From: Ilumatobacteraceae bacterium
GTDB lineage: Bacteria; Actinomycetota; Acidimicrobiia; Acidimicrobiales; Ilumatobacteraceae
Direction of reading: 5' to 3'
DNA length: 64,000 nt
NCBI GenBank assembly: GCA_963776935.1
Contig: CAVZOP010000007.1
Coordinates: 8,788-72,787 of the forward strand
This document shows positions 3,155 to 51,106 of this stretch, one piece after another. Every line of letters begins with the position of its first letter. Within the stretch, counting starts at the first letter, position 1. Made by a program: the position numbers and the translations under genes. A model generated the notes under the pieces. It was not told where the DNA came from and searched no databases. It saw only the letters and a list, made by a program, of their open reading frames with translations.

Positions 3155-4655
<1,501 letters not shown>

Positions 4656-4666
4656 TCGGTAAGGGC

Positions 4667-5197
4667 TCACGACAGGTCTGATTGGGCGTTGATGGTGTAG
4701 TTCCATTCGCCGTGGAAGTCGTGTGGGTGGAGTGGGACGGCGGCGAGTTCGGTGTCGGTGATCCGGACGCCCTTCGCGTACCACTCGGGGTCGTGTGCGG
4801 CTTGCACGGTGAGGCCGGTGGAGGTGGTGGTTGCGGAGATCAGTTCGATGATGGTGCGCAAGCTGGTGAGGGGCCGTCCGCGCCAGTTCATCGTGATGAA
4901 CGAGAACATGCGGTGCTCGATCCGGTTCCACTTCGAGGTGCCGGGCGGGTAGTGACAGACCGTGATCGTCAGTCCTTTCTCAGCGGCGAGGCGGGCGAGG
5001 TGGAGTTTCCAGGCGCGAGCCGGTAGCCGTTCGAGCCGCCGGCATCAGCGGTGATCAACAGCCGCGTCGCGTTCGGGAACCGGGTGCTGCCCATCTGGTT
5101 CCACCAGGCCCGGATCGATTCGGCCGCGAACTCGGCGGTGTCAGCGACATCACCAACCGACACCCAGCCTTCGTTGGCGTCGGCGTGACGACCCGCT
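4667..5197 (-). mobile_element. ISAzo13-family (DDE_Tnp_ISAZ013) transposase remnant, C-terminal half, frameshifted near 5010
   Basis: Joining track ORFs 4969-5247 and 4667-4909 gives ..LLITADAGGSNGYRL/RAWKLHLARLAAEKGLTITVCHYPPGTSKWNRIEHRMFSFITMNWRGRPL..FHGEWNYTI... These are hallmark motifs of the ISAzo13/Rhodopirellula-type DDE transposase. The N-terminal half is absent. Confidence 0.7.
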
Positions 5198-5356
5198 GGG
5201 CTGCTGCCAGGCACGACGCGTTCGCAGAGGTTTAGCGTTGTCGCCAAACGGAGCCCACTAGACGCTTGGATATCGGTCTGAGATTTGCCTCTGAACAGGC
5301 ATTTCCTGTGGAGCGGACGACGGGATTCGAACCCGCGACCCTCACCTTGGCAAGGT
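5198..5356. repeat. Left copy of island-bounding direct repeat (attL-like): tRNA-Gly 3'-flank homologue plus exact 48-nt tRNA-Gly 3' half
   Basis: 5309-5356 is identical to 15062-15109. 5198-5308 aligns with 14953-15061 with scattered mismatches. Both copies start at GGGCTGCTGCCAGGC. Confidence 0.85.
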
Positions 5357-5841
5357 CATGAAAATGGTCTCCCCCGTCTCACCAGTCTCCCGAGCAGCGT
5401 GTCGTCTCCTCGCTAGTCTCCCCAGTCCGCAGAGTGCACCCCTGTCGCCTCGCAACCGTTTAGCGCGCTAAACCACCACGAACTCGCAGAGCGTGCGTCC
5501 TCGCCGAACGCCCGGGAAGCAACGCAGCTCCGCCTGGTCGCCGAGGCGCACAGATCGCCGGATCACGCGCTCGTTCTCATAAGCGGATCGCCGGATGCTA
5601 TCTGCATCTATACCAGTGCGCGTTGGTACGCACGGATGATCTGCAGAGCGTGTGTTGTTCTTGGATCGCGTATTTCGGCGGTGGGCGCGCATCGGTAAGT
5701 CTGGCACGCCCCGCACTTAGCCAACAAACTGGATCGAGGTGATCACGCTGTCGTCGACGGCCACGTTGAGACATCGATCAACACCGGTAATCGCACGCGA
5801 ATGCATCGGCAACGTCACACCTCCCGAGTAGAACGGCGCAC

Positions 5842-6684
5842 ATGCTCGAGATGCTTCCTGGCCGTCGACTTAACGACGCTATTATGCGCACTGTTCAAGA
5901 CGTGGCGACCGATGCTGGTAACCGGCGGGCAGCGGGCCAACCGATTCGGGCATTGCACGAGTGGGCGACCAACACCGAGGCCGGGTTTCGCGGCATCATT
6001 CCGACCAGCGAGGTGCAACGACTCGTCTACACCGAGAGGTACTGGCACGCTGGGACCGTCGACTCGCACTGGCCGAGATCGACGACGCCTACCACCGGTG
6101 GACACGCGAATTCGATGAGCTCAAGGCATGGCGCCAGCGGTGGCTCATCGAGCAACGCGATGATGATTGTCTCCGACACGTCCGTGATCCTGCGCGCCCA
6201 GGGTTCGATCGCCAGCATTGAGTGGTTCAAGCTCGTCGGCGCCGGCAAGCAAGATCCGGTTCGGGTGGTCATCCCGCTCGTCGTCCTCGATGAGCTCGAG
6301 AACCAGAAAGACCGCGGCGAGAACAAGGCACAAGAAGGTCAAGAGCACTCCCCGCGCGTCAAGGCTCGTCATGCCCTGCGAGACCTCGCAGCGCTGTTCG
6401 CCACCCGCATGTTGCCCACGCAGCCGACTGAGGTACCCGTCGAGTACGTCGTCGCTGCGCGGCCCACCGTTGAGGTGCTCGAAGATCCGCCCGGGGGTCA
6501 CGTCCGCTACCCGCGTGCCGACGATGAACTCATCCGCCGAGCCGTGCATCTGCGCAACACCACCGGCCGCCGAGTCGTCCTCGTCACCTATGACGTTGCG
6601 ATGTCCATCCGGGCGCAGATCGAGGAACTCAGCGTTGTACTTCATGATGGCGCGGGCGGCGCCGTGCCGCTCAATTTCCAGTGA
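5842..6684 (+). pseudogene. PIN-domain nuclease-like protein with helical N-terminal region (frame-disrupted upstream of the PIN domain)
   Basis: The C-terminal ~175 aa read ..MMIVSDTSVIL..VIPLVVLDELENQKD..YPRADDELIRRAV..VLVTYDVAMSIRA.., with four acidic positions spaced as in PIN domains. Upstream coding sense hops between track frames 5842 and 5961 (..LALAEIDDAYHRWTREFDELKAWRQRW..). Confidence 0.55.
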
Positions 6685-6977: not shown

Positions 6978-7241
6978 CTAGTTGATCGTGCTGACCGCTG
7001 CCCGCACCGCGTCGGCGCGGCCGTCCAGATCGATGGCGACGAACCAATTGCCAGAGCTCTCGACGCGTAGCTGTGCAGGTGACTTGACCTGGCGGCCGCC
7101 GTAACCCCGGTAGTTGAGGCCACGCGTGTAGCGGGCGTAGTTGTAGCTGTCGACGAGGTGCACGTTCGCTTGCTTGTCGAGCTCGACCGTCACGGTGGTG
7201 CCGGCGGCGATGTGGCCGAGATTGAACTTGAGATGGTGCAT
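6978..7241 (-). CDS. DUF1883 domain-containing protein
   Basis: 87 aa: MHHLKFNLGHIAAGTTVTVELDKQANVHLVDSYNYARYTRGLNYRGYGGRQVKSPAQLRVESSGNWFVAIDLDG... This matches the remembered DUF1883 pattern (..DLG.l..G..v.V.L...aNV.LmDs.Ny..Y..G....Y.GG....SP..l......G.W.v.iDl.G). Confidence 0.7.
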   Translation of the reverse strand: MHHLKFNLGHIAAGTTVTVELDKQANVHLVDSYNYARYTRGLNYRGYGGRQVKSPAQLRVESSGNWFVAIDLDGRADAVRAAVSTIN

Positions 7242-7355: not shown

Positions 7356-7571
7356 TCAGACGCGCTGGGTGATGGTTCCGCCGGGGTTGCGGCGTGCGGT
7401 TGCTTCGGTGACGAAGCGGCCCGTACTCGCCGAGCGGCTGACGGGCGTGTTGTTCCGGGTGCTCCCGCCGACCCGCTCCGTGGTCGTGCGGGCCGGGTGG
7501 CGCTGGGCGGTCCCTCGAGTAACGAAACGTCCGGTCGATGCGCTGCGGTGGACGGTGTGTCCTTTGGCCAT
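7356..7571 (-). CDS. Small basic protein with two tandem ~35-aa repeats (SASTGRFVT..A.R.P..T..[EQ]RV)
   Basis: 71 aa: MAKGHTVHRSASTGRFVTRGTAQRHPARTTTERVGGSTRNNTPVSRSASTGRFVTEATARRNPGGTITQRV. A strong SD (AAGGAGAA, complement of 7581-7588) lies 9 nt upstream of the ATG. Confidence 0.5.
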   Translation of the reverse strand: MAKGHTVHRSASTGRFVTRGTAQRHPARTTTERVGGSTRNNTPVSRSASTGRFVTEATARRNPGGTITQRV

Positions 7572-9462: not shown

Positions 9463-10189
9463 TCAGTTCAGCGAACACTTCTTGACTATGTGCTCTGCCA
9501 GGACCTTTGGTGACATCCGGCGGGCATCGAGATACCCGATCGTTGGTCGGATTCCGGGCAACTCAGTGTCATCGAACCGAACCGGAAGAATGTAATCGGA
9601 ATCCTGGTTCTCCAATGCAGCTGAGAGTGCGCTGCGCCGCTCATGCACAGTCCACATCCACGTGCGGTATTCCGCTGAGATGAACATGACCACATGTCTC
9701 GAGCGAAGGCGGTACACACCGTCGAGGTGCTCAGCGAGATCCTTGCCCCAAAGTTCGGTCTGCGCATCTCGGTCGTAGAAGATTCGAAGGTTCCGGGCCT
9801 TCAGTTTCGTCGCCACGCGCTCGACGTATCACGTTGCCGCGCGCCACAAACGATAAAGCCACGTCGTACTCAGCCACCTTCAGCCCCACGTCCGTCAACC
9901 GCTGTCCAAGATCCCACATCATACTTGCTAGATCGTCGCCCTGACCGATAGCTCGGAGTACCGACGAGTCGTACGCAGCCGTGGAGGACAGCACAAGCGC
10001 GCCGACGATAAGCCCTTTCTCGGGGGCCTCTTCTCGCACGATGGGGATGGAACGTTGAAAGGCCCAGCGTTCGCCGCCGTGGCCGCTGTTTTTCTGCATC
10101 GTCTCGCCGAAGAGTACCGAATGCGCCGCAAGGTTGGCGGTGTCCGGATGAAGTGAAAACGCCTGAACCGTCCTCGCATGTTTAACCAC
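9463..10189 (-). pseudogene. TIR-domain protein with ~115-aa N-terminal extension (frame break at ~9832-9850 as sequenced)
   Basis: The upstream frame ends ..LKVAEYDVALSFVARGN. The downstream frame continues YVERVATKLKARNLRIFYDRDAQTELWGKDLAEHLDGVYRLRSRHVVMFISAEYRTWMWTVHERRSAL..DYILPVRFDDTELP... This is the bacterial TIR_2 pattern (D-V-x-L-S-F start, FYD, S..Y....W...E, ILPV). The N-terminal part (..RSIPIVREEAPEKGLIVGALVLSS..) is faintly like the C-terminal half of a GAF domain. Confidence 0.65.
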
Positions 10190-10360
10190 GAAAGCGCTCG
10201 ACCCCCACTGCTCAACATGCGTTGGACCCGTTAATCCACGCGCTCAGTTCGATCTGTTCGTTGCTCGGCGGCCTCGGAAGCGATGCAAGCGCACCAAAGA
10301 GCAGGCGATGAAACTCTTGGAAGATAAGACTGAGGCTGCGCTCGTCGGCGAAGCGACGAT

Positions 10361-11297
10361 CTAGAGACTTGTACCAACCTCCTTGCGCTTCGAAAATGAC
10401 TCTGGCCAGTAGTCGTGGCCTGCGACGGCGGCGATCGTGAGTTCATTGACGATTTCCGCGATGTCGCCGTACGTCGAAAGACTAAACACGTCGATTCCAC
10501 GCTGGCCGAGTGTTTGGGCCACAAGTCGGTGTAGTTGTGGAGTCCGGTCATCTGGCCTGCGCTGCGTTACGAACAGCTTGACGGCGCAATTGGGGTCTGG
10601 AAGGCGCCGTACAAGTTTCGCCACGAGTGGATGCAGCACTGGGAAACCAAGCAGCAGGCATACATCGGCGCGGAGGATCCAAATGAGCGCCCCCTCGTCG
10701 ATCTCAGGCGGCAGGGTCTGGACAAGATTTGACCGGCGCACGGCCGGTTCGATCGGGCCCGGAAATCCCGTAGAGATGCAGCACACTCAAATGACCAAGC
10801 AGATCCACCTCTACATCATTGGGCGGCGTGATCTCAGCCGGTAGAACGGGCACTATCCTCACTTCGCCTCTGGCGACGGAGTGAGCTGTTCGGCCCAGAG
10901 CGTCCTCGATCTCGAGGGTTCGCGATGTGGTCGCTATCCGAATCCAGGTGTTACGAGTGCAAGCCGAGCGATGCGGCTGATCAGGAGGCTGGATCTGAAG
11001 CTGACAGGTCACTCGGTGGTTCATGGAGCTCAAGAACGGTCCCGAGGGTGTCGAGCTCAAGAACTCGAGCGCTTCCAGCTCGTCCTCCCAGACGGACGGC
11101 GCGTGAGTGCGGTCGACCCGAAAGATCTCATCGACCAGTGCCCTCCTCACCAACTCGACGTCATCTGGTCGCCCAAGACTTGCGGCGACACCAGGACCTA
11201 GCACGAGCGAAACCGCCGTGGCTCCCCGCACTCGATCGATCAGACGCACGAAGTGCAGGTTGTGTTCCGAGAGGACGCTCTCACTCGGATAAATCAC
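10361..11297 (-). pseudogene. SIR2-like (SIR2_2/DHS-like NAD-binding fold) protein (frame break at ~10765-10785 as sequenced)
   Basis: GTG start at 11297. Four motifs support the call:
- ..AVSLVLGPGVAASLGRPDDVEL.. (GAGxS-like loop)
- ..IRIATTSRTLEIEDAL.. (cf. ITTNYD..lE)
- ..LSVLHLYG.. (cf. KLHG)
- after the shift, ..ALIWILRADVCLLLGF.. (cf. llfiGyS)
No SLOG-like C-terminal domain was recognised. Confidence 0.55.
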
Positions 11298-11977
11298 CGA
11301 GGCGCCCCCGAGCCAAGGTCCTGAGGCTGCATGTCACGACGCGCCCGTTAGACATGGCCACCAATCTAGGGCTTGACGCGGGGCGACCAGCTGGAGCTTC
11401 GGCGCGTGCGAGCTGTTGAGCGTCGAACGTGCGGGGCGGAGCGCGCCTTGCCGCCGAGGACCTCATGCAACTCAAGCGCGCTTCGTTCAAGCTGAACGCG
11501 CCTCATTCGAGGGTCCCGGCGGACCGGACCATCTCCGGGGCACTCGACCGGAGTCACGCATATCGCGCACACAGAACGGTTCAACTCGGCATCGCCAGGA
11601 GCGCCCATATCGGCGCATCGGCGTGCGCCCGCGAGCCGGGTGCTGGGGCGCCTGCATCGTGAGACGGCCGGAGCATTTGGCCGTGCCAGACCTCGTTGTC
11701 GGATTCCTCCGGAGTGAACCGCCCTGGCTTCGTTGGAGGCCACACCTCCGCACCGAGATCGGCTGAACCGCAACACAGCGTCGCGTCTGACCCCTGAACC
11801 GGCCAACGCCCACCAGGCTGTTCGACGAACGAATTGTCGACACGACGCCAACACCGGCGCGGGCCGTGACTTAACAGGAGCCTGCCCTCACTCGAGTGGC
11901 CCATCTCTGTCGTGTCCGACCAACCGCGCCACAGGTTCCTTGACAACACAGGAGGATCGATCTGAATACCATCGGCG

Positions 11978-12372
11978 ATGTCCCCGAGTGCCGATCGGGG
12001 ATACAGAACTACCGCACAGATCGACCGCGACTGGTCCACTCGTCGCCGCGCTCCAAACGGCGTCTCTGTTCGACGCGATACCATTCGGCTACGGCGACCC
12101 GCCCGGAAGAAACTCGAGGCAGTTTGGCGCGCCGATGGCACGATCATCGCGGTGGCTCGCCGCTTCGAGGTAGCGCCGACAACGGCCGCGATATGGCTCG
12201 CAGACGTCGGCATCTTCGTCAAGTCCGAGCCGGCAATCTGCGCGCCAACCCGCTGGCGGCGATCGACGCCGGCAAGTCGATCAACGAGATCGCCGCCGAT
12301 CACGGCGTCGGTGATCGGACAGTTAGTGTCGAGCTTCGCCGCCACGGCCTAGTCGAACGCCACCGCCGCAGA
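11978..12372 (+). pseudogene. Tandem helix-turn-helix fragment (resolvase/transposase-type HTH), frame-disrupted; 3' limit uncertain
   Basis: ..KKLEAVWRADGTIIAVARRFEVAPTTAAIWLADVGI.. is in track frame 11978. ..LAAIDAGKSINEIAADHGVGDRTVSVELRRHGL.. follows in frame 12124. No catalytic domain follows. Confidence 0.3.
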
Positions 12373-12660
12373 CCAACGGGTCCCGTAACGGCTTCGTCGA
12401 AGACCTCCAGGCGGGCGCGGGAGGAGCTCAGTCAGCGCGAGTTCGTTGAGCACCAAACGCGACATTCGATGAACCCCCCTCGACAGACCGGCAGGGATGG
12501 CGACGTCGTGCGTGGCTGCGGAACGAAGTGGAGGCTGCGACCCATCGATCGCTTTCGTCGCCCTGTCTGTATGCGAAACCGCGACGACGCTTCCTTGACA
12601 GCCCCACGCGTGAGGTACACCATGAAAGCCGCAGCACGAAAGTGCCGAGAGAGGGGATCA

Positions 12661-13560
12661 GTGATGGCGATAATATCCGGAGACGGCTTCACTGCGCCGT
12701 TTGACGAGGACGGAGAACCCTATGGCACCTTCGGTGCACGGACACCGGCGTTGCGGACCTTTCGCCTGACTTTTGGATCGCACCGAAAACTGGCGCTGAT
12801 CGGTGTCCTTCCTGGAGGCGAATCGCAGGACCTAAATCCCGCAACGCCGCCAGACACGGATGATGATCCCGGACCAGTCGCTCCAGGGCCGGTGGAGGTA
12901 CCCGATGGGCGACTTTATGTGTACCTCCAGGACGCCCATCCGGAGGGCGACGAGTTTTCATACGAGGTATCACATTCCGCCGTTCGCATCCCAGGGGCAC
13001 GGAGATATCAACTCCGTGACGTGGGTTGCGTGGGTGTTTGTACTCGCGTTCTCCCCTTCTCTGTCCTGGGAGGAATAAGTGCGGTCAGTCGACCACTCCT
13101 CGCTCTCGTCGGGTTCAAGCTGTATTTCATCGGCGGGCGCGAGCACAACATCGATCGAATAGGTGTCTGGTTTGTAGAAAACAAGCTCAAGGTTGCATTT
13201 AATGACAAGAACGACGACGACACCTTCGGATACGTCGTCGACTTCGTGGTAATTCCAAGCTTGGGGTTGAATTTGAACGAGGGTGAACTTAAGGGCAAAG
13301 GTGCGACAGGGTTACAGACCGTTCCTTTGGCAACCCCGAGTCGCGGCAGCTTTATGCTCACCGGATTCGACTTGAATTATCAAAAGGGCGACCACGAAGT
13401 ACGCGACGTCGGGGTTTATCGTCGGCGGAACGACTTGACCGTGATTCATGCTGACGATGCCGGAGCATCACCCTTCGATTGGCGAGTTTCTTTCGCTCAA
13501 CCCGCTCCTCAGGTGTTCGCTGATGAGGGAATTCGATCAACCCTTGTTGCTGTTCCATAG
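12661..13560 (+). CDS. Hypothetical protein with three internal repeats (L-x-[GT]-F-x-L-x-[FY]..H..[IV]..[IV]GV..)
   Basis: GAGGGGA RBS at 12651-12657, then GTG 12661 / ATG 12664. The three repeats are LRTFRLTFGSHRKLALIGV, LVGFKLYFIGGREHNIDRIGVWFVENKLKVAFNDKNDDDTFGYVVDF and LTGFDLNYQKGDHEVRDVGVYRRRNDLTVIHADDAGASPFDWRVSF. This is the lowest-GC stretch of the window. Confidence 0.5.
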   Translation: MMAIISGDGFTAPFDEDGEPYGTFGARTPALRTFRLTFGSHRKLALIGVLPGGESQDLNPATPPDTDDDPGPVAPGPVEVPDGRLYVYLQDAHPEGDEFSYEVSHSAVRIPGARRYQLRDVGCVGVCTRVLPFSVLGGISAVSRPLLALVGFKLYFIGGREHNIDRIGVWFVENKLKVAFNDKNDDDTFGYVVDFVVIPSLGLNLNEGELKGKGATGLQTVPLATPSRGSFMLTGFDLNYQKGDHEVRDVGVYRRRNDLTVIHADDAGASPFDWRVSFAQPAPQVFADEGIRSTLVAVP

Positions 13561-13668
13561 GATAGCTGCAATAGAGAGCAGCGCGCTGGGCGTACGGTTC
13601 GCCCGGAAGTGGTGCCTACTCCCAGGCGGAGAGCGCACAGGCCGGGACAATCGGCAACACTGACGGCG

Positions 13669-14628
13669 ATGCGCGGCTCCTCGACCAGCCGGTTCGCCGC
13701 CTTCCGGTCGGCGATCGTTCTGGGCGGAATCATCGCGTCCGTGACCGGATGTGAGGACGTGCCCCGGAATCTGATGGTGTTACCCGTGCGCTGGTGCGCT
13801 CTCGAAGGGTCGTCGATCGCCCTCGGAGCGCCGGGCGAACTGGTGTCGTCTCATCCCGACATCGCCGCTGCGACGCTTTCGGCCGGCGAGATTTGGGCTC
13901 AGGCCGACATCGCACTGATCGCAGTCGTTACCGAACGATCGGGTGTGAAAGGCGTGCCGGTGATCGTGGACCTCGATTCGTTTCATGCCCCGGGCGAGGA
14001 CACCGGAGATATCTACTCCGAGGGTGGTGATCTCTTCGAGGCGCAGATCGCGGCTCAGGAATGTGATCAGGTATGGAGGAAGCTCGGTCCCGGCGCCTCT
14101 GGCCCCGTCGCGGTCGTTGCCCGGCGATTCGTCGGCTTGGGGCTGACGCGTGGCGTGGCGCCGCCGCCCCCGTTCTCGATGCGGCGAAATGGTCCGCGCT
14201 GGGGAGATCTGTGCGCCGAGCCGTGTGCCTTGTCAGCGAGCGACGTGTTCGACATTGGGCACCACACATCGTCCGATCGCGGTTGGATGGTCATCCAGGA
14301 CTTCGCGCTGTACTCAGGCACGCGACGCCGTGACGAAGACATCGCTCACGAACTCGGTCATGTGCTGTACGTCGGTCACGGCGACGGCGTCGACAACAAT
14401 GATGATGGAACGGCGACGCCAACTGACGGTTTCCGTCGCTACGACGAGTATTGCGATCCGCTCGGCAGCGGTGAGGATGAGCAGTCGTCGCCGCCTCCGG
14501 CATGTTCTGCGTCGCTGATGATGCCGTCTCCCTGCGATACGAAACTGACGGACTTGCAGGTCGAGCAAGCGCGTGCCGCGGCGGCGGTGATGCCTGGCTG
14601 CAAGGGGTCGGCCTGCACACCGGGTTGA
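13669..14628 (+). CDS. Secreted zinc metalloprotease-like lipoprotein (metzincin-type HELGHxxxxGH motif)
   Basis: The signal peptide is MRGSSTSRFAAFRSAIVLGGIIASVTGCED (lipobox VTGC). The zinc motif is HELGHVLYVGHGDG. The C-terminal tail is Cys-rich. Confidence 0.65.
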   Translation: MRGSSTSRFAAFRSAIVLGGIIASVTGCEDVPRNLMVLPVRWCALEGSSIALGAPGELVSSHPDIAAATLSAGEIWAQADIALIAVVTERSGVKGVPVIVDLDSFHAPGEDTGDIYSEGGDLFEAQIAAQECDQVWRKLGPGASGPVAVVARRFVGLGLTRGVAPPPPFSMRRNGPRWGDLCAEPCALSASDVFDIGHHTSSDRGWMVIQDFALYSGTRRRDEDIAHELGHVLYVGHGDGVDNNDDGTATPTDGFRRYDEYCDPLGSGEDEQSSPPPACSASLMMPSPCDTKLTDLQVEQARAAAAVMPGCKGSACTPG

Positions 14629-14952
14629 GGTGGTGCGATCGGGCGTCGGCGGGGTGTTGCGGTGCCAGAAGTGCTCGTCCGGCGTTCTGCGCGAGCGACA
14701 CAGCACGTACACCATGCAGCCCACTCGGGCGGTGGCCACGGCCCCGCGGTGTGCGCTCCAGAGTCGGGCAATCAGTAGCGCCGCGCCTTCGTCTCGAGGC
14801 TGACCAGTCGCTACCGCCGTTTGACGCTGCTTCGAGGCTATTCAAAAGAGTCGCCGGCTCACCCACGACGTGAACCTGGGTACCCGGCCGCCTAGCACCG
14901 ATTCGGTAGAGCATCACCTGACCGGACCGAATCTGAGACGCTCTACGAGAAT

Positions 14953-15109
14953 GGGCTGCTGCCAGGCTCGACGCGTTCGCAGAGGTTTAGCGTTGTCGCC
15001 AACCGAAGGCCACGAACGCTTGGATCCGGTCCGAGATTTGTCCTCTGAACAGGTACTTCGTGTGGAGCGGACGACGGGATTCGAACCCGCGACCCTCACC
15101 TTGGCAAGG
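14953..15109. repeat. Right copy of island-bounding direct repeat (attR-like), overlapping the intact tRNA-Gly
   Basis: See 5198-5356. The exact 48-nt core 15062-15109 covers the tRNA from the CCA end to the anticodon loop. Confidence 0.85.
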
Positions 15110-15136
15110 TGATGCTCTACCACTGAGCCACGTCCG
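15062..15136 (-). tRNA. tRNA-Gly (anticodon GCC)
   Basis: The reverse complement GCGGACGTGGCTCAGTGGTAGAGCATCACCTTGCCAAGGTGAGGGTCGCGGGTTCGAATCCCGTCGTCCGCTCCA folds as a 75-nt cloverleaf. It has a 7-bp acceptor stem, an anticodon loop TTGCCAA, a GTTCGAATC T-loop and an encoded CCA. Confidence 0.93.
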
Positions 15137-15157
15137 CGTGGGTCGCCAGATTACCAA

Positions 15158-19452: not shown

Positions 19453-19590
19453 GCAGTGCATCGCGAGCGGCACGAACGCCGGGTTGCCGGACGGATCCGG
19501 CCACATCCCACCGTTGCCGGTGGAGGCACCTTGGAGCGTTCATCCAGGTTGCCGGGCCCATTGTGCGGGCCGCTCGAAATGCTGCACCGA
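19453..19590 (-). promoter_or_regulatory. Candidate SAM riboswitch (SAM-I/SAM-IV-like core) in the metX leader
   Basis: The RNA reads ..CGAGCGGC-CCGCACAAUGGGCCCGGCAACC-UGGAUGAACGCUCCA-AGGUGCCUCC-ACCGGCAACGGU..GCCGCUCG. An 8-bp closing helix (19569-19576 with 19464-19471) encloses several hairpins. The conserved SAM-I/IV strings GCAACC and AGGUGC are present in the expected order. Confidence 0.45.
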
Positions 19591-48696: not shown

Positions 48697-50920
48697 TCAG
48701 ACTCCGACGAGCTCGCGATCGTCGTCGTCGTCCAACTCGCGGGCATCGTCGGGGACGACGACCTCGAGCGCTTCCATCACCGAAGCACCCTCGACGTCGA
48801 TGTGCGGCAATGCCCGATCGAGCCACCGCGGCAACCACCAGTTGGCGTCGCCCATCAGCGCCATCGTCGACGGCACCAGCACCATCCGCACGATCGTTGC
48901 GTCGACGAACACCGCGACCGTCAGTCCGACGGCGAACATCTTGACCTCGACGTCGGACGACAGCAGGAACGCCGCGAACACACTGATCATGATGAGCGCC
49001 GCCGACGTGATCACCCTCGCCGTCGCCGCCAGGCCGTCGACGACGCTCTGGTGGCTGTCGCCGGTGCGCACGAACTCCTCACGCACCCGGCTGAGCAGGA
49101 ACACCTCGTAGTCCATCGACAGCCCGAACAGGATGGCGAACATGATCATCGGCAGGAACGGACTCACGGGCACGGTCTCCTCGACGCCGATCAGGCCGTT
49201 GCCCCATCCCCACTGGAAGACTGCGACGACCACGCCGTAGGCGGCGCCGATCGACAGCAGGTTCATGATCGCCGCCTTGAACGGCACGAACACCGACCGG
49301 AACACGAGCATCAGCAGCAGGAACGACACACCGACGACGGCGGCGATGAAGATCGGCAGCCGCGAGTCCGAGCTTCTCGCTGATGTCGATGTAGCTCGCG
49401 GTCTGACCGGTGACGTAGGCGTCGACGCCGGAATCCGTCAGCGACTCGGGGAGCACGTCGTCACGCAGTGTGTGAACCAGTGCCTCGGTCTCCTGCTCCT
49501 GCGGCGACGTCGCCGGGAAGGCGGTCACGACCGCCGTGTCGGACTCGGCGTTGAACACCGGATCGGTGACGAACACGATCCCTTCCGTCGCCGCGACCGA
49601 GGCACGGACCTCCTCGGCGACGGACTGGTCGACGTCACCACCGTCGACGCCCTCGAGGGCGATCGTCAGCGGGCCGTTGAAGCCGGGCCCGAACCCGTCG
49701 GCCAACAGGTCGTACGCCTTGCGGTACGTCTTGTCGGTTGCCGCCGTGCCGTCGTCCGCCATGCCGGTCCGCATCGCCAGCACCGGAGCGGCGATGGCGG
49801 TCAGCACGACGAAGCTGCCGATCGCGTAGCGCCATGGATGACGGCCGACGTGGTCGGCCCAGCGACCCGACAGCGTGGTGTGGGCGGCAACCTCCGCCGC
49901 CGAGCGCCGGCGACCGATGTGCAGCCGATCGATCTTCGAGCCGGCCAGTCCCAAGAAGGCGGGGAGCAGCGTGACGGCGCCGAGCATGGCGACGAGCACG
50001 GTGACGGCCGACGCGTATCCCATGACGGCGATCGAGGGGATCCCGGCGAGCGTCAGGCCGGCCAGTGCGACCACGACGGTCGTGCCGGCGAACAACACGG
50101 CGGTTCCCGACGTTGCGTTGGCGAGCGCCGCCGACTCGACGGGCGAGCGGCCCTCGTGCATGAAGCCCCGGTGACGGGTGACGACGAAGAGTGCGTAGTC
50201 GATGCCGACGCCGAGTCCGATCATCGTGGCGAGCATCGGCGAGATCGACGGCACGTCGGTGAAGCCCGACATCACTCCGACCAAGCCCAGCCCGATGAAG
50301 ATGCCGAACAGCGCCGAACCGATCGGGATGCCTGCCGCGATCACCGAACCGAATGCCACGAGGAGCACGATGATGGCGACCGCCAGGCCGACCATCTCGC
50401 CGCCCTCGACCTCTTCGGACCCGCTGACGATCGAGCGTGACAACTCGGCCTGCAGACCGGCGTCGCGTGCGATCTCGACGGCCGCTTCGGCTGCCTCGCC
50501 TTCCTCCGGGCCGGGCGGATCGACGCTGTAGCGAACCGTCGCGTAGGCGATCCGCCCGTCGGCGCTGACCGACGCGTTCGCCGGGTCGTAGGGATCGGTC
50601 ACGGCGAGCACGTTGGGGCCGGACGCGATCTCGCCGAGCGTCTCGGCGATCGCCGCCCGAGCAGTCGGATCGGTGATGTCACCGTCCGGATCGGCGAACA
50701 CGATCTGACCACTCACGCCACCCTGGGTCGGGAAGCGCTCCTCGAGCAGGTCGATGCCGCGCTGGGCCTCGGTGCCGGGGATCGTGAAGTCGTCACTGGT
50801 CTCGCCGCCGACGGAAGCGTTGAGACCGACGACCGCGACCGCGATCACGATCCACGCCCCGATCATCCGCCATGGGTGCAGTGCGGCAACCCGCCCCCAC
50901 CGGTACAGGATCTTGGACAT
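48697..50920 (-). pseudogene. MMPL-family (RND superfamily) transporter, frame break at ~49340-49380 as sequenced
   Basis: A GAGGAG RBS precedes MSKILYRWGRVAALHPWRMIGAWIV.. at 50920. There are two 6-TM bundles. The second bundle (..SFLLLMLVFRSVFVPFKAAIMNLLSIGAAYG..) is in the track frame 48697-49329. Confidence 0.8.
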
Positions 50921-51106
50921 TTGGATGCTCCTCAATGAGTAGAGGTGAGTGGACGTCAGCGCCGCACGGAACGCGGCTCACCCGACGATCGAACGGGACC
51001 ACGCTGACGTGCGCCCGACCTCGCGCTGACACGCCCGCTGACGGGCCGCTGATGCGGCATCCTCCCTGGTCAGAGCGGTGCGATCACCGCATCGACGAGG
51101 TCGTCG

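What the first reader, a model, noticed from the sequence alone, without database searches (positions are those of the whole stretch)
9463..11297. Adjacent SIR2-like and TIR-domain genes with non-canonical architecture inside the tRNA-Gly island (Thoeris-like but not Thoeris)
A SIR2_2-type NAD-binding-fold gene (GAGxS-like loop, ITTNYD-like and KLHG-like motifs) lies head-to-tail with a TIR_2-type gene. The TIR domain is preceded by an unassigned extension of ~115 aa or more. SIR2 and TIR are the two NAD+-consuming and signalling modules of Thoeris. Here, however, the SIR2 protein shows no recognisable SLOG sensor domain, and the extra domain sits on the TIR protein instead. I could not match this domain distribution to type I or II Thoeris, SPARTA/SPARSA, DSR or AVAST layouts from memory. 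Both genes carry a single frame break as sequenced, so the system may be inactive or mis-sequenced.
Basis: partly seen in the sequence, partly recalled or inferred. Interest (0 to 1): 0.8.

Follow-up and report, generated by a model that had tools for sequence, protein, structure and literature searches.

The report
Broken TIR gene, unproven SIR2 neighbour
A frame-shifted copy of a common bacterial TIR-domain (NAD-cleaving immune) gene sits in a small decaying tRNA-Gly island. The neighbouring "SIR2" gene cannot be confirmed by any accepted test, so this is an ordinary defence-gene remnant rather than a new SIR2+TIR system.

Summary
The TIR half of the finding is real. Window 9463-9868 (- strand) encodes a complete TIR_2 domain: Pfam 44 bits, 179-205 bits against a profile of 40 homologues, and an AlphaFold model closest to AbTir. 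Every invariant family residue is kept, including the catalytic Glu. The gene is broken inside the conserved SFAGEDR motif (9829-9841).

The open frame continues about 107 codons upstream. That stretch has no homologue anywhere and is mostly modelled as disorder.

The SIR2 half is not supported. There is no Pfam, PADLOC or NCBIfam hit at E<=10 in any frame. No homologue turned up among 5.8 billion or 1.84 billion proteins. ORFs of that length are expected by chance.

Unfiltered comparison with my own SIR2 profiles leaves only a weak colinear resemblance (about 4 bits; hhalign P 0.002-0.02, probability 3-16%). Genuine distant SIR2 proteins score 104-223 bits against the same profile. Under that alignment the catalytic Asn, Asp and His are all replaced.

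None of nine gene neighbourhoods of related TIR genes contains a SIR2. The closest label is the single-gene PADLOC candidate PDC-S66, not Thoeris. Interest is low.

The parts
9463..9816 (-). 3' ORF (117 aa): TIR domain from helix alphaA to the C-terminus, stop at 9465-9463
   Evidence: Pfam TIR_2 E 2.6e-9. 179 bits against a profile of 40 homologues, profile positions 21-139.
9829..9841 (-). Frame-break zone inside the conserved SFAGEDR motif. It holds 13 nt (CGCGGCAACGTGA) where the family has 12, and TGA at 9831-9829 is in the downstream frame.
   Evidence: The third frame reads RQRD, which matches the family's (E)QRD. A two-lesion repair (+2 in the GCGCGCGG run, -1 at GAT|AC) scores 205.3 bits against 198.2 for a one-lesion repair.
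9731..10189 (-). 5' ORF (152 aa): an orphan N-terminal stretch of about 107 aa, then the first TIR strand (YDVALSF from 9868), then an out-of-frame tail
   Evidence: The N-terminal stretch has no homologue. AlphaFold gives pLDDT about 30 for residues 1-73 and two helices at 75-100.
9640..9642 (-). GAG codon of the conserved Glu (E183 of the repaired protein, motif WTVHER), the predicted catalytic residue
   Evidence: The column is invariant in 41 sequences. It aligns with the Glu of AbTir WTNYEL. Coordinates checked.
10704..11297 (-).
   Evidence: No family hit. No homologue among 1.84 billion proteins. The only local SIR2-profile match is 11219-11142, at -4 to +1 bits.
10361..10786 (-).
   Evidence: No family hit. 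The only local SIR2-profile match is 10531-10436, at 0.5-1.7 bits.
10400..10732 (+). Alternative protein-like reading on the opposite strand, with one in-frame stop, overlapping the 141-aa ORF
   Evidence: Backbone-trained codon-usage scoring favours this frame at 10441-10800. No homologue.
5197..5360 (.). Left copy of the direct repeat that bounds the island: a partial 3' end of tRNA-Gly plus about 110 nt of flank
   Evidence: 94-95% identical to 14952-15114.
14952..15137 (-). Right copy of the repeat (14952-15114), overlapping the intact tRNA-Gly(GCC) at 15063-15137

Best explanation
The locus is a pseudogenised stand-alone TIR-domain effector gene. It belongs to a large modular family in which one conserved AbTir-like TIR NADase domain is fused to variable N- or C-terminal regions. 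PADLOC knows this family only as the single-gene candidate PDC-S66. The gene lies in a roughly 9.6-kb island of lower G+C, bounded by a duplicated 3' end of tRNA-Gly, with no integrase found in it.

Inferred mechanism when intact: the variable N-terminal region would hold the TIR domain inactive until an infection cue. TIR self-association would then form the active site around the conserved Glu (E183) and cleave NAD+. The outcome would be either NAD+ depletion (abortive infection) or production of an ADPR-derived signal.

As sequenced, the gene is interrupted inside the SFAGEDR strand-loop motif, most likely by two small indels. No full-length TIR protein can be made.

The 1.1 kb upstream (10190-11297) is unassignable orphan sequence. 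It could be a lineage-specific or decayed gene, or non-coding DNA. It is not demonstrably SIR2.

Shown: the TIR identity, fold, conserved residues, frame break, island borders, and the absence of SIR2 support. Inferred: NADase activity, the regulatory role of the N-terminal stretch, and inactivity.
For: - TIR_2 at 44.3 bits, above the cut-off of 28.
- 626 homologues, the best 63% identical over the TIR domain only.
- The family carries varied N- and C-terminal regions, including AbiJ_NTD3.
- All 19 invariant columns are kept, including W179, H182 and E183.
- A profile search of the PDB finds AbTir, BtpA and another bacterial TIR, with the Glu aligned.
- AlphaFold gives pLDDT 80-96 over the TIR domain. 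The top Foldseek hit is AbTir 7uxu, TM 0.78.
- 41 of 41 family members hit PDC-S66, best E 3.9e-46; the window copy hits at 2.9e-8.
- The break is mapped to 9829-9841. The two-lesion repair scores 7 bits better.
- The island repeat is shown.
- The neighbours of nine relatives are restriction-modification genes, integrases, transposases, helicases and GmrSD, never SIR2.
Against: - No orthologue shares the N-terminal stretch, so its reality and the true start codon are unknown. The protein could start at the ATG pair at about 9921 and be TIR-only.
- Without reads, the break could be a sequencing error in a GC-rich run.
- A weak colinear resemblance of the upstream ORFs to SIR2 persists (1-3 of 2000 shuffles reach the observed score; hhalign P 0.0016-0.019). 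A degenerate partner gene is therefore not excluded.
- NADase activity is inferred only from conserved residues.
Confidence: 0.7

Rival explanations
1. One reading: a two-gene module of a SLOG-less SIR2-like protein (10361-11297) and an N-terminally extended TIR protein. It would be related in logic to Thoeris, with both genes frame-shifted.
For: - With filters off, the repaired 311-aa reading aligns end to end with SIR2 profiles (hhalign 220-237 columns, P 0.0016-0.0029, probability 11-16%).
- The two local HMM matches are colinear, spaced 229 codons apart against 225 in the profile.
- Only 1-3 of 2000 shuffles reach the observed score.
- The two frames rank 1st, or 2nd and 3rd, among about 420 independent six-frame tiles of the window.
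- Real Thoeris loci do place SIR2 next to TIR.
Against: - The absolute score is only 0.3-4.6 bits, whereas genuine SIR2 proteins of other clades score 104-223 bits against the same profile.
- No Pfam, PADLOC or NCBIfam hit at E<=10.
- No homologue in 5.8 billion or 1.84 billion proteins, nor in plasmids or phages.
- The hypothesis was chosen because of these same motifs, so the P-values are uncorrected for selection over many families and about 420 tiles.
- The signal stopped growing when the profile was diversified further.
- Catalytic Asn, Asp and His are replaced by Ser, Thr and Tyr.
- The neighbouring TIR is well preserved, so parallel decay cannot explain an unrecognisable SIR2.
- Zero of nine TIR-relative neighbourhoods contain a SIR2.
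- This TIR clade's profile does not hit the ThsB genes of real Thoeris loci.
Confidence: 0.15
2. The frame break is an assembly or sequencing error, and the TIR gene is intact and functional in the organism.
For: - The net change is +1 nt in a GC-rich run (GCGCGCGG).
- All invariant TIR residues are kept.
- Backbone genes inspected (purL, purD, purM, guaB) look intact, so the genome is not obviously riddled with errors or decay.
Against: - The better-scoring repair needs two separate indels.
- The near-invariant A-G-E of SFAGEDR reads V-A-R even after repair.
- The island shows other signs of decay: no integrase, and a truncated GH42 gene beside it.
- The backbone genes show no frameshifts that would point to a noisy assembly.
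Confidence: 0.15
3. The stretch upstream of the TIR gene (10190-11297) holds no gene belonging to the TIR unit. It is non-coding remnant DNA, or carries a decayed gene on the + strand (10400-10732 and about 10881-11201).
For: - ORF lengths are within chance.
- Codon-usage scoring favours + strand frames over 10441-11040.
- The + strand reading is protein-like with one in-frame stop.
- Nothing in any frame has a homologue.
Against: - The codon model was trained on backbone genes of different composition, and every frame scores negative.
- The + strand reading has no homologue either.
- The weak SIR2-like colinearity lies on the - strand.
Confidence: 0.45

Closest known systems
PADLOC candidate PDC-S66 (single-gene, TIR-containing phage-defence candidate; untested)
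   Same: The TIR domain matches profile positions 146-240 of 282 (31.5 bits, E 2.9e-8). All 41 aligned family members hit this model, best E 3.9e-46. The genes stand alone in mobile or defence islands.
   Different: The N-terminal 145 positions of the model are not matched by the window's N-terminal stretch. The window copy is frame-shifted. Only annotation listings mention PDC-S66 in the searched literature.
AbTir/BtpA-type bacterial TIR NAD+ hydrolases (PDB 7uwg, 7uxu, 8g83, 4lzp)
   Same: Closest solved structures both by sequence profile (E 1.3e-4 to 2.3e-4) and by fold (7uxu, TM 0.78). The WTxHE Glu aligns with the Glu of AbTir WTNYEL.
   Different: About 20% identity. AbTir and BtpA have coiled-coil N-terminal parts and are described as virulence or signalling enzymes. 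No activity data exist for this clade.
Type I Thoeris (ThsA SIR2-SLOG plus ThsB TIR)
   Same: A TIR gene in a defence-type island. 38 of 41 relatives give weak hits to a PADLOC ThsB model. There is a sub-threshold SIR2-like resemblance upstream.
   Different: No ThsA, SIR2 or SLOG profile hit. The window TIR itself misses the ThsB models. Its family profile does not hit the ThsB genes of real Thoeris loci. Real loci read TIR-ThsA(480-484 aa)-TIR.
Retron type XII RT-TIR (NCBIfam NF042941; PADLOC RT-TIR_XII)
   Same: The TIR domain resembles the C-terminal TIR of these fusions (34.6 bits). 31 of 41 relatives hit RT-TIR_XII.
   Different: No reverse-transcriptase domain in any frame upstream. The score is far below the family cut-off of 600. 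Rfam finds no RNA family in the region at gathering thresholds.

Membership tests
Pfam TIR_2 (PF13676) | Profile match above the gathering score | tested here: met
   44.3 bits against a cut-off of 28, profile positions 2-110 of 122, on the repaired protein. 38 bits on the 117-aa ORF alone.
Catalytic TIR NADases | Conserved catalytic Glu in the WxxxE motif, and a TIR fold | tested here: met
   E183 is invariant in 41 sequences and aligns with the AbTir Glu. The fold is modelled at pLDDT 80-96 and matches AbTir. Enzymatic activity itself cannot be tested here.
SIR2_2 (PF13289) / defence sirtuins | Profile match to a SIR2 model | tested here: not met
   No Pfam or PADLOC hit at E<=10 for the fragments, the repaired join, or six frames. 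Unfiltered scores against my own SIR2 profiles are 0.3-4.6 bits, against 104-223 bits for real members.
SIR2_2 (PF13289) / defence sirtuins | Catalytic Asn and Asp of TTNYD, and His of K(L/M)HG | tested here: not met
   Under the best hhalign alignment these positions read Ser, Thr and Tyr (TTSRT, HLYG). Their importance is shown by the mutant entries ThsA TTAYD, DSR2 H171A and KomC H146N.
Thoeris | ThsA partner with a signal-binding SLOG (or Macro) domain beside the TIR gene | tested here: not met
   No ThsA or SLOG hit in PADLOC or Pfam in any frame. A 311-aa reading leaves no room for SLOG; real ThsA proteins are 480-484 aa.
Thoeris | ThsB-type TIR protein | tested here: inconclusive
   The window TIR misses the ThsB models at E<=0.001, although 38 of 41 relatives hit ThsB1 weakly. 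The clade profile does not hit the ThsB genes of three real Thoeris loci.
Thoeris-like SIR2+TIR pair | Conserved co-occurrence of the two genes | tested here: not met
   Zero of nine distinct neighbourhoods of TIR relatives (13 loci) contain a SIR2, by precomputed Pfam and by my SIR2 HMM. The upstream ORFs have no orthologue to test.
PDC-S66 | Full-length match to the 282-position model | tested here: inconclusive
   Only positions 146-240 (the TIR part) are matched, at 31.5 bits.
Retron RT-TIR (type XII) | Reverse-transcriptase domain fused upstream of the TIR | tested here: not met
   No RVT hit in six frames. NF042941 scores 34.6 bits against a cut-off of 600.
SPARTA | TIR-APAZ fusion with an adjacent short pAgo | tested here: not met
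   The protein ends right after the TIR domain. The Aga_TIR hit covers the TIR only, E 0.002. No pAgo or APAZ family was found on the island ORFs scanned.

The most novel reading that the evidence does not exclude
The two upstream ORFs are the remains of an extremely divergent, catalytically inactive SIR2-fold protein that worked with this TIR effector. That would be a SLOG-less, Thoeris-like two-gene module absent from PADLOC and Pfam, with the orphan N-terminal stretch of the TIR protein as its interaction or sensing part.
Probability: 0.1. Interest if true: 0.55.

Novelty: new member of a known kind. Interest (0 to 1): 0.15.

Why it matters
It matters little as it stands. The locus adds one inactivated, lineage-specific member to a very large family of modular bacterial TIR proteins whose defence role is still only a candidate annotation.

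The main value is corrective. A motif-by-eye SIR2 call next to a TIR gene looked like a new Thoeris-like system, but it does not survive profile, homology or co-occurrence tests.

If an intact orthologue ever showed the upstream ORFs to be a real, dead SIR2-fold partner, it would illustrate an enzyme fold recruited as a regulator of a TIR effector.

Tried and rejected
- **Exact-protein look-ups** of three window ORFs, to find the source contig: nothing on record.
- **Genome-collection scans** with the TIR protein and with a 74-nt codon-degenerate pattern: no relative and no match. The organism therefore stays unidentified. A **metagenome pattern scan** also found nothing.
- **Single-sequence AlphaFold** of the repaired 'SIR2': pLDDT 36, uninformative, so I did not run a fold search on it.
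- **phmmer against the PDB** with the 'SIR2' reading: only chance beta-lactamase matches, E about 0.8.
- **tblastx** of the upstream region against the fetched loci and the rest of the window gave only compositional noise. The best hit (43 bits, to a Streptomyces histidine-kinase coiled coil) fell to 19 bits with composition correction.
- **Plasmid and phage searches**, by DNA and by a 474-aa concatenated reading: no match.
- **Retron/RT-TIR idea**: rejected, with no RT domain and no Rfam hit.
- **Backbone-trained codon-usage model** to settle strand and frame upstream of the TIR: inconclusive, every frame scoring negative.
- **Promoter and terminator scan**: nothing above shuffle expectation.
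- **Motif triple count**: I give it no weight because the patterns were defined after seeing the sequence.

Full report
**What is in the sequence.** On the minus strand of 9463-11297 there are four ORFs in three frames: 10704-11297 (197 aa), 10361-10786 (141 aa), 9731-10189 (152 aa) and 9463-9816 (117 aa). The region lies in a stretch of lower G+C (0.58-0.62, against about 0.70 in the backbone). That stretch is bounded by a direct repeat: 5197-5360 and 14952-15114, 94-95% identical. The repeat contains the 3' 52 nt of the tRNA-Gly(GCC) gene at 15063-15137 plus about 110 nt of flank. This defines an island of roughly 9.6 kb. Among the island ORFs I scanned, the only family matches were a PIN_4 protein and a DUF1883 protein. 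I found no integrase.

**The TIR gene is real.**
- ORF 9463-9816 matches Pfam TIR_2 (E 2.6e-9). Joined to the upstream frame, the match covers profile positions 2-110 of 122 at 44.3 bits, against a cut-off of 28.
- A search of 5.8 billion proteins returned 626 homologues. The best are 53-63% identical, but only over the TIR part, about 55% of the query.
- The family is modular. The same TIR domain sits C-terminal to coiled coils, AbiJ_NTD3 or other regions, or N-terminal to other domains, and TIR-only proteins also exist.
- In an alignment of 41 sequences the window copy keeps all 19 invariant residues, including W179, H182 and E183.
- A profile search of the PDB finds AbTir, BtpA and another bacterial TIR. 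The family's WTxHE motif aligns with AbTir WTNYEL. From published work as I recall it, not checked here, that Glu is the catalytic residue of TIR NADases.
- AlphaFold with the alignment models residues 105-241 at pLDDT 80-96. The best structural match is the AbTir TIR domain, TM 0.78.

**The frame break.** A profile built from the 40 homologues places positions 7-17 (AEYDVALSFVA) in the frame of ORF 9731-10189 and positions 21-139 in the frame of ORF 9463-9816. Between them lie 13 nt (9841-9829, CGCGGCAACGTGA) where the family has 12.

Removing one base gives SFVARGNVYVE. The third frame reads RQRD, which matches the family's (E)QRD. That reading requires a +2 insertion in the GCGCGCGG run and a 1-nt deletion at GAT|AC, and it scores 205.3 bits against 198.2. 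Either way the near-invariant A-G-E of SFAGEDR reads V-A-R. I therefore favour a true pseudogene over a sequencing error, but only reads can settle it.

**The N-terminal extension.**
- The frame is open for about 107 codons upstream of the TIR domain, and its codon-position G+C pattern is compatible with coding.
- It has no homologue among the 120 listed TIR relatives, in a dedicated search, or in plasmids and phages.
- AlphaFold models residues 1-73 as disorder (pLDDT about 30) and residues 75-100 as two helices of moderate confidence.
- Whether it is translated is unknown. In-frame starts also exist at about 10099 and 9921.

**The 'SIR2' gene: standard tests.**
- The two ORFs, a repaired 311-aa join, and all six frames of 10150-11520 give no hit at E<=10 in Pfam or PADLOC. 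NCBIfam gives only a chance 12.5-bit CTX-M match.
- The repaired join has no homologue at E<=0.01 among 5.8 billion proteins.
- The 197-aa ORF has none at E<=0.001 in an exhaustive phmmer scan of 1.84 billion representatives.
- Dinucleotide shuffles of the 1.3 kb give an ORF of at least 197 aa 13% of the time, and of at least 141 aa 54% of the time.
- The opposite strand at 10400-10732 also reads protein-like and is slightly favoured by a codon model, but it too is an orphan.

**The 'SIR2' gene: deeper test.** The library scans use speed filters, so I built my own SIR2 profiles. I started from the BcThsA SIR2 domain, recalled from memory and verified as identical to 6lhx, plus three other solved SIR2 NADases. 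I added ThsA-like sequences from viral and metagenome contigs and diverse plasmid SIR2 proteins, including actinobacterial and other high-G+C ones.

| Profile | hmmsearch, filters off | Shuffles (of 2000) reaching the score | hhalign |
|---|---|---|---|
| 4 solved SIR2 domains | 0.3 bits | 7 | P 0.016, probability 2.9% |
| 100 ThsA-like sequences | 2.7 bits | 3 | P 0.019, probability 2.4% |
| 50 diverse sequences | 4.6 bits | 1 | P 0.0016, probability 15.9% |
| 55 diverse sequences | 3.9 bits | 1 | P 0.0029, probability 10.6% |

- The hhalign alignments are colinear over 220-237 columns.
- Only two local HMM matches exist, at 11219-11142 and 10531-10436. They are in the right order and are spaced 229 codons apart, against 225 in the profile.
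- The candidate frames rank first, or second and third, among about 420 independent six-frame tiles of the window.

So there is a persistent weak signal. Five things argue against calling it homology.
1. Genuine SIR2 proteins of other clades, left out when the 50-sequence profile was built, score 104-223 bits against it.
2. The signal stopped growing with further diversification.
3. The P-values are uncorrected for the fact that this sequence was picked because of these very motifs, out of many possible families and about 420 tiles.
4. The island's lower G+C favours matches to these profiles.
5. The catalytic Asn, Asp and His read Ser, Thr and Tyr. These are the residues mutated in the inactive ThsA, DSR2 and KomC structures listed.

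A well-preserved TIR beside an unrecognisable SIR2 is also not what parallel decay of a two-gene system would produce. I put the chance of true SIR2 ancestry at about 15-25%.

**Co-occurrence.** Nine distinct neighbourhoods of TIR relatives show type I restriction-modification genes, integrase plus UvrD, HTH/RES/integrase, HIT plus a ThsB_TIR gene, transposases, a helicase plus GmrSD, and others. None shows a SIR2, either by precomputed Pfam or by my SIR2 HMM. No neighbour resembles the window's upstream ORFs.

Real Thoeris loci fetched as SIR2 sources read TIR-ThsA(480-484 aa)-TIR. Their ThsB genes are not hit by this TIR clade's profile.

**Classification.**
- All 41 family members hit the PADLOC single-gene candidate PDC-S66, best E 3.9e-46. 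The window copy hits at 2.9e-8, over the TIR part only.
- Weaker hits go to ThsB1 (38 of 41) and RT-TIR_XII (31 of 41). Neither a ThsA nor a reverse transcriptase is present.
- In the searched literature PDC-S66 appears only in annotation listings.

**Verdict.** The locus is a frame-shifted member of a widespread, modular, AbTir-like TIR effector family, in a degenerate tRNA-Gly island. It has an orphan N-terminal stretch and orphan upstream sequence. The SIR2+TIR reading is not supported at any accepted threshold, and the locus fails the membership tests for Thoeris. The weak SIR2-like colinearity is recorded as an open possibility. Interest is low.

Noticed in passing
window 5197-5360 and 14952-15114: A 163-nt direct repeat (94-95% identical). 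It comprises the 3' 52 nt of tRNA-Gly plus about 110 nt beyond the tRNA end, and it brackets a roughly 9.6-kb island of lower G+C in which I found no integrase. The repeat extends well past the tRNA, which is unusual for a simple att core.
   Followed up: partly
window 4090-4662 (+): A fragment of a GH42 beta-galactosidase (Pfam positions 31-174 of 376, E 4e-64), downstream of sugar ABC-transporter genes. It stops about 0.5 kb before the island's left repeat and is apparently a truncated pseudogene.
   Followed up: no
window 5842-6684 (+) and 6978-7241 (-): A PIN_4-domain protein and a DUF1883 protein inside the island. Neither matches any PADLOC model.
   Followed up: partly
window 7356-7571 (-): A small 71-aa ORF with an internal duplication of the motif SASTGRFVT(R/E)..A.R.P. 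It has no Pfam or PADLOC hit.
   Followed up: partly
window 12124-13560 (+) and 13609-14628 (+): Two large island ORFs without any Pfam or PADLOC hit. The second contains an HELGH (HExxH-type) motif suggestive of a zinc metalloprotease.
   Followed up: partly
window 19470-19587 (-): A SAM-I/IV riboswitch (Rfam RF01725, 49.6 bits against a gathering score of 41.1) in the backbone.
   Followed up: no
window 49079-50935 (-): An MMPL-family transporter ORF of 618 aa that matches only positions 171-460 of a 910-position model. It may be another truncated gene.
   Followed up: no
L119 4822-5895 and L120 976-2049: In two metagenome contigs a 254-aa relative of the TIR protein is followed by the same 357-aa protein with no Pfam hit. 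This could be a conserved partner for that sub-clade. It shows no similarity to the window's upstream ORFs.
   Followed up: partly
L005 5001-7295: In a Streptomyces contig, a TIR relative with an N-terminal TIR domain is followed by a HIT/DcpS_C protein, and a ThsB_TIR gene lies nearby on the other strand. This makes a small cluster of two different TIR genes.
   Followed up: no
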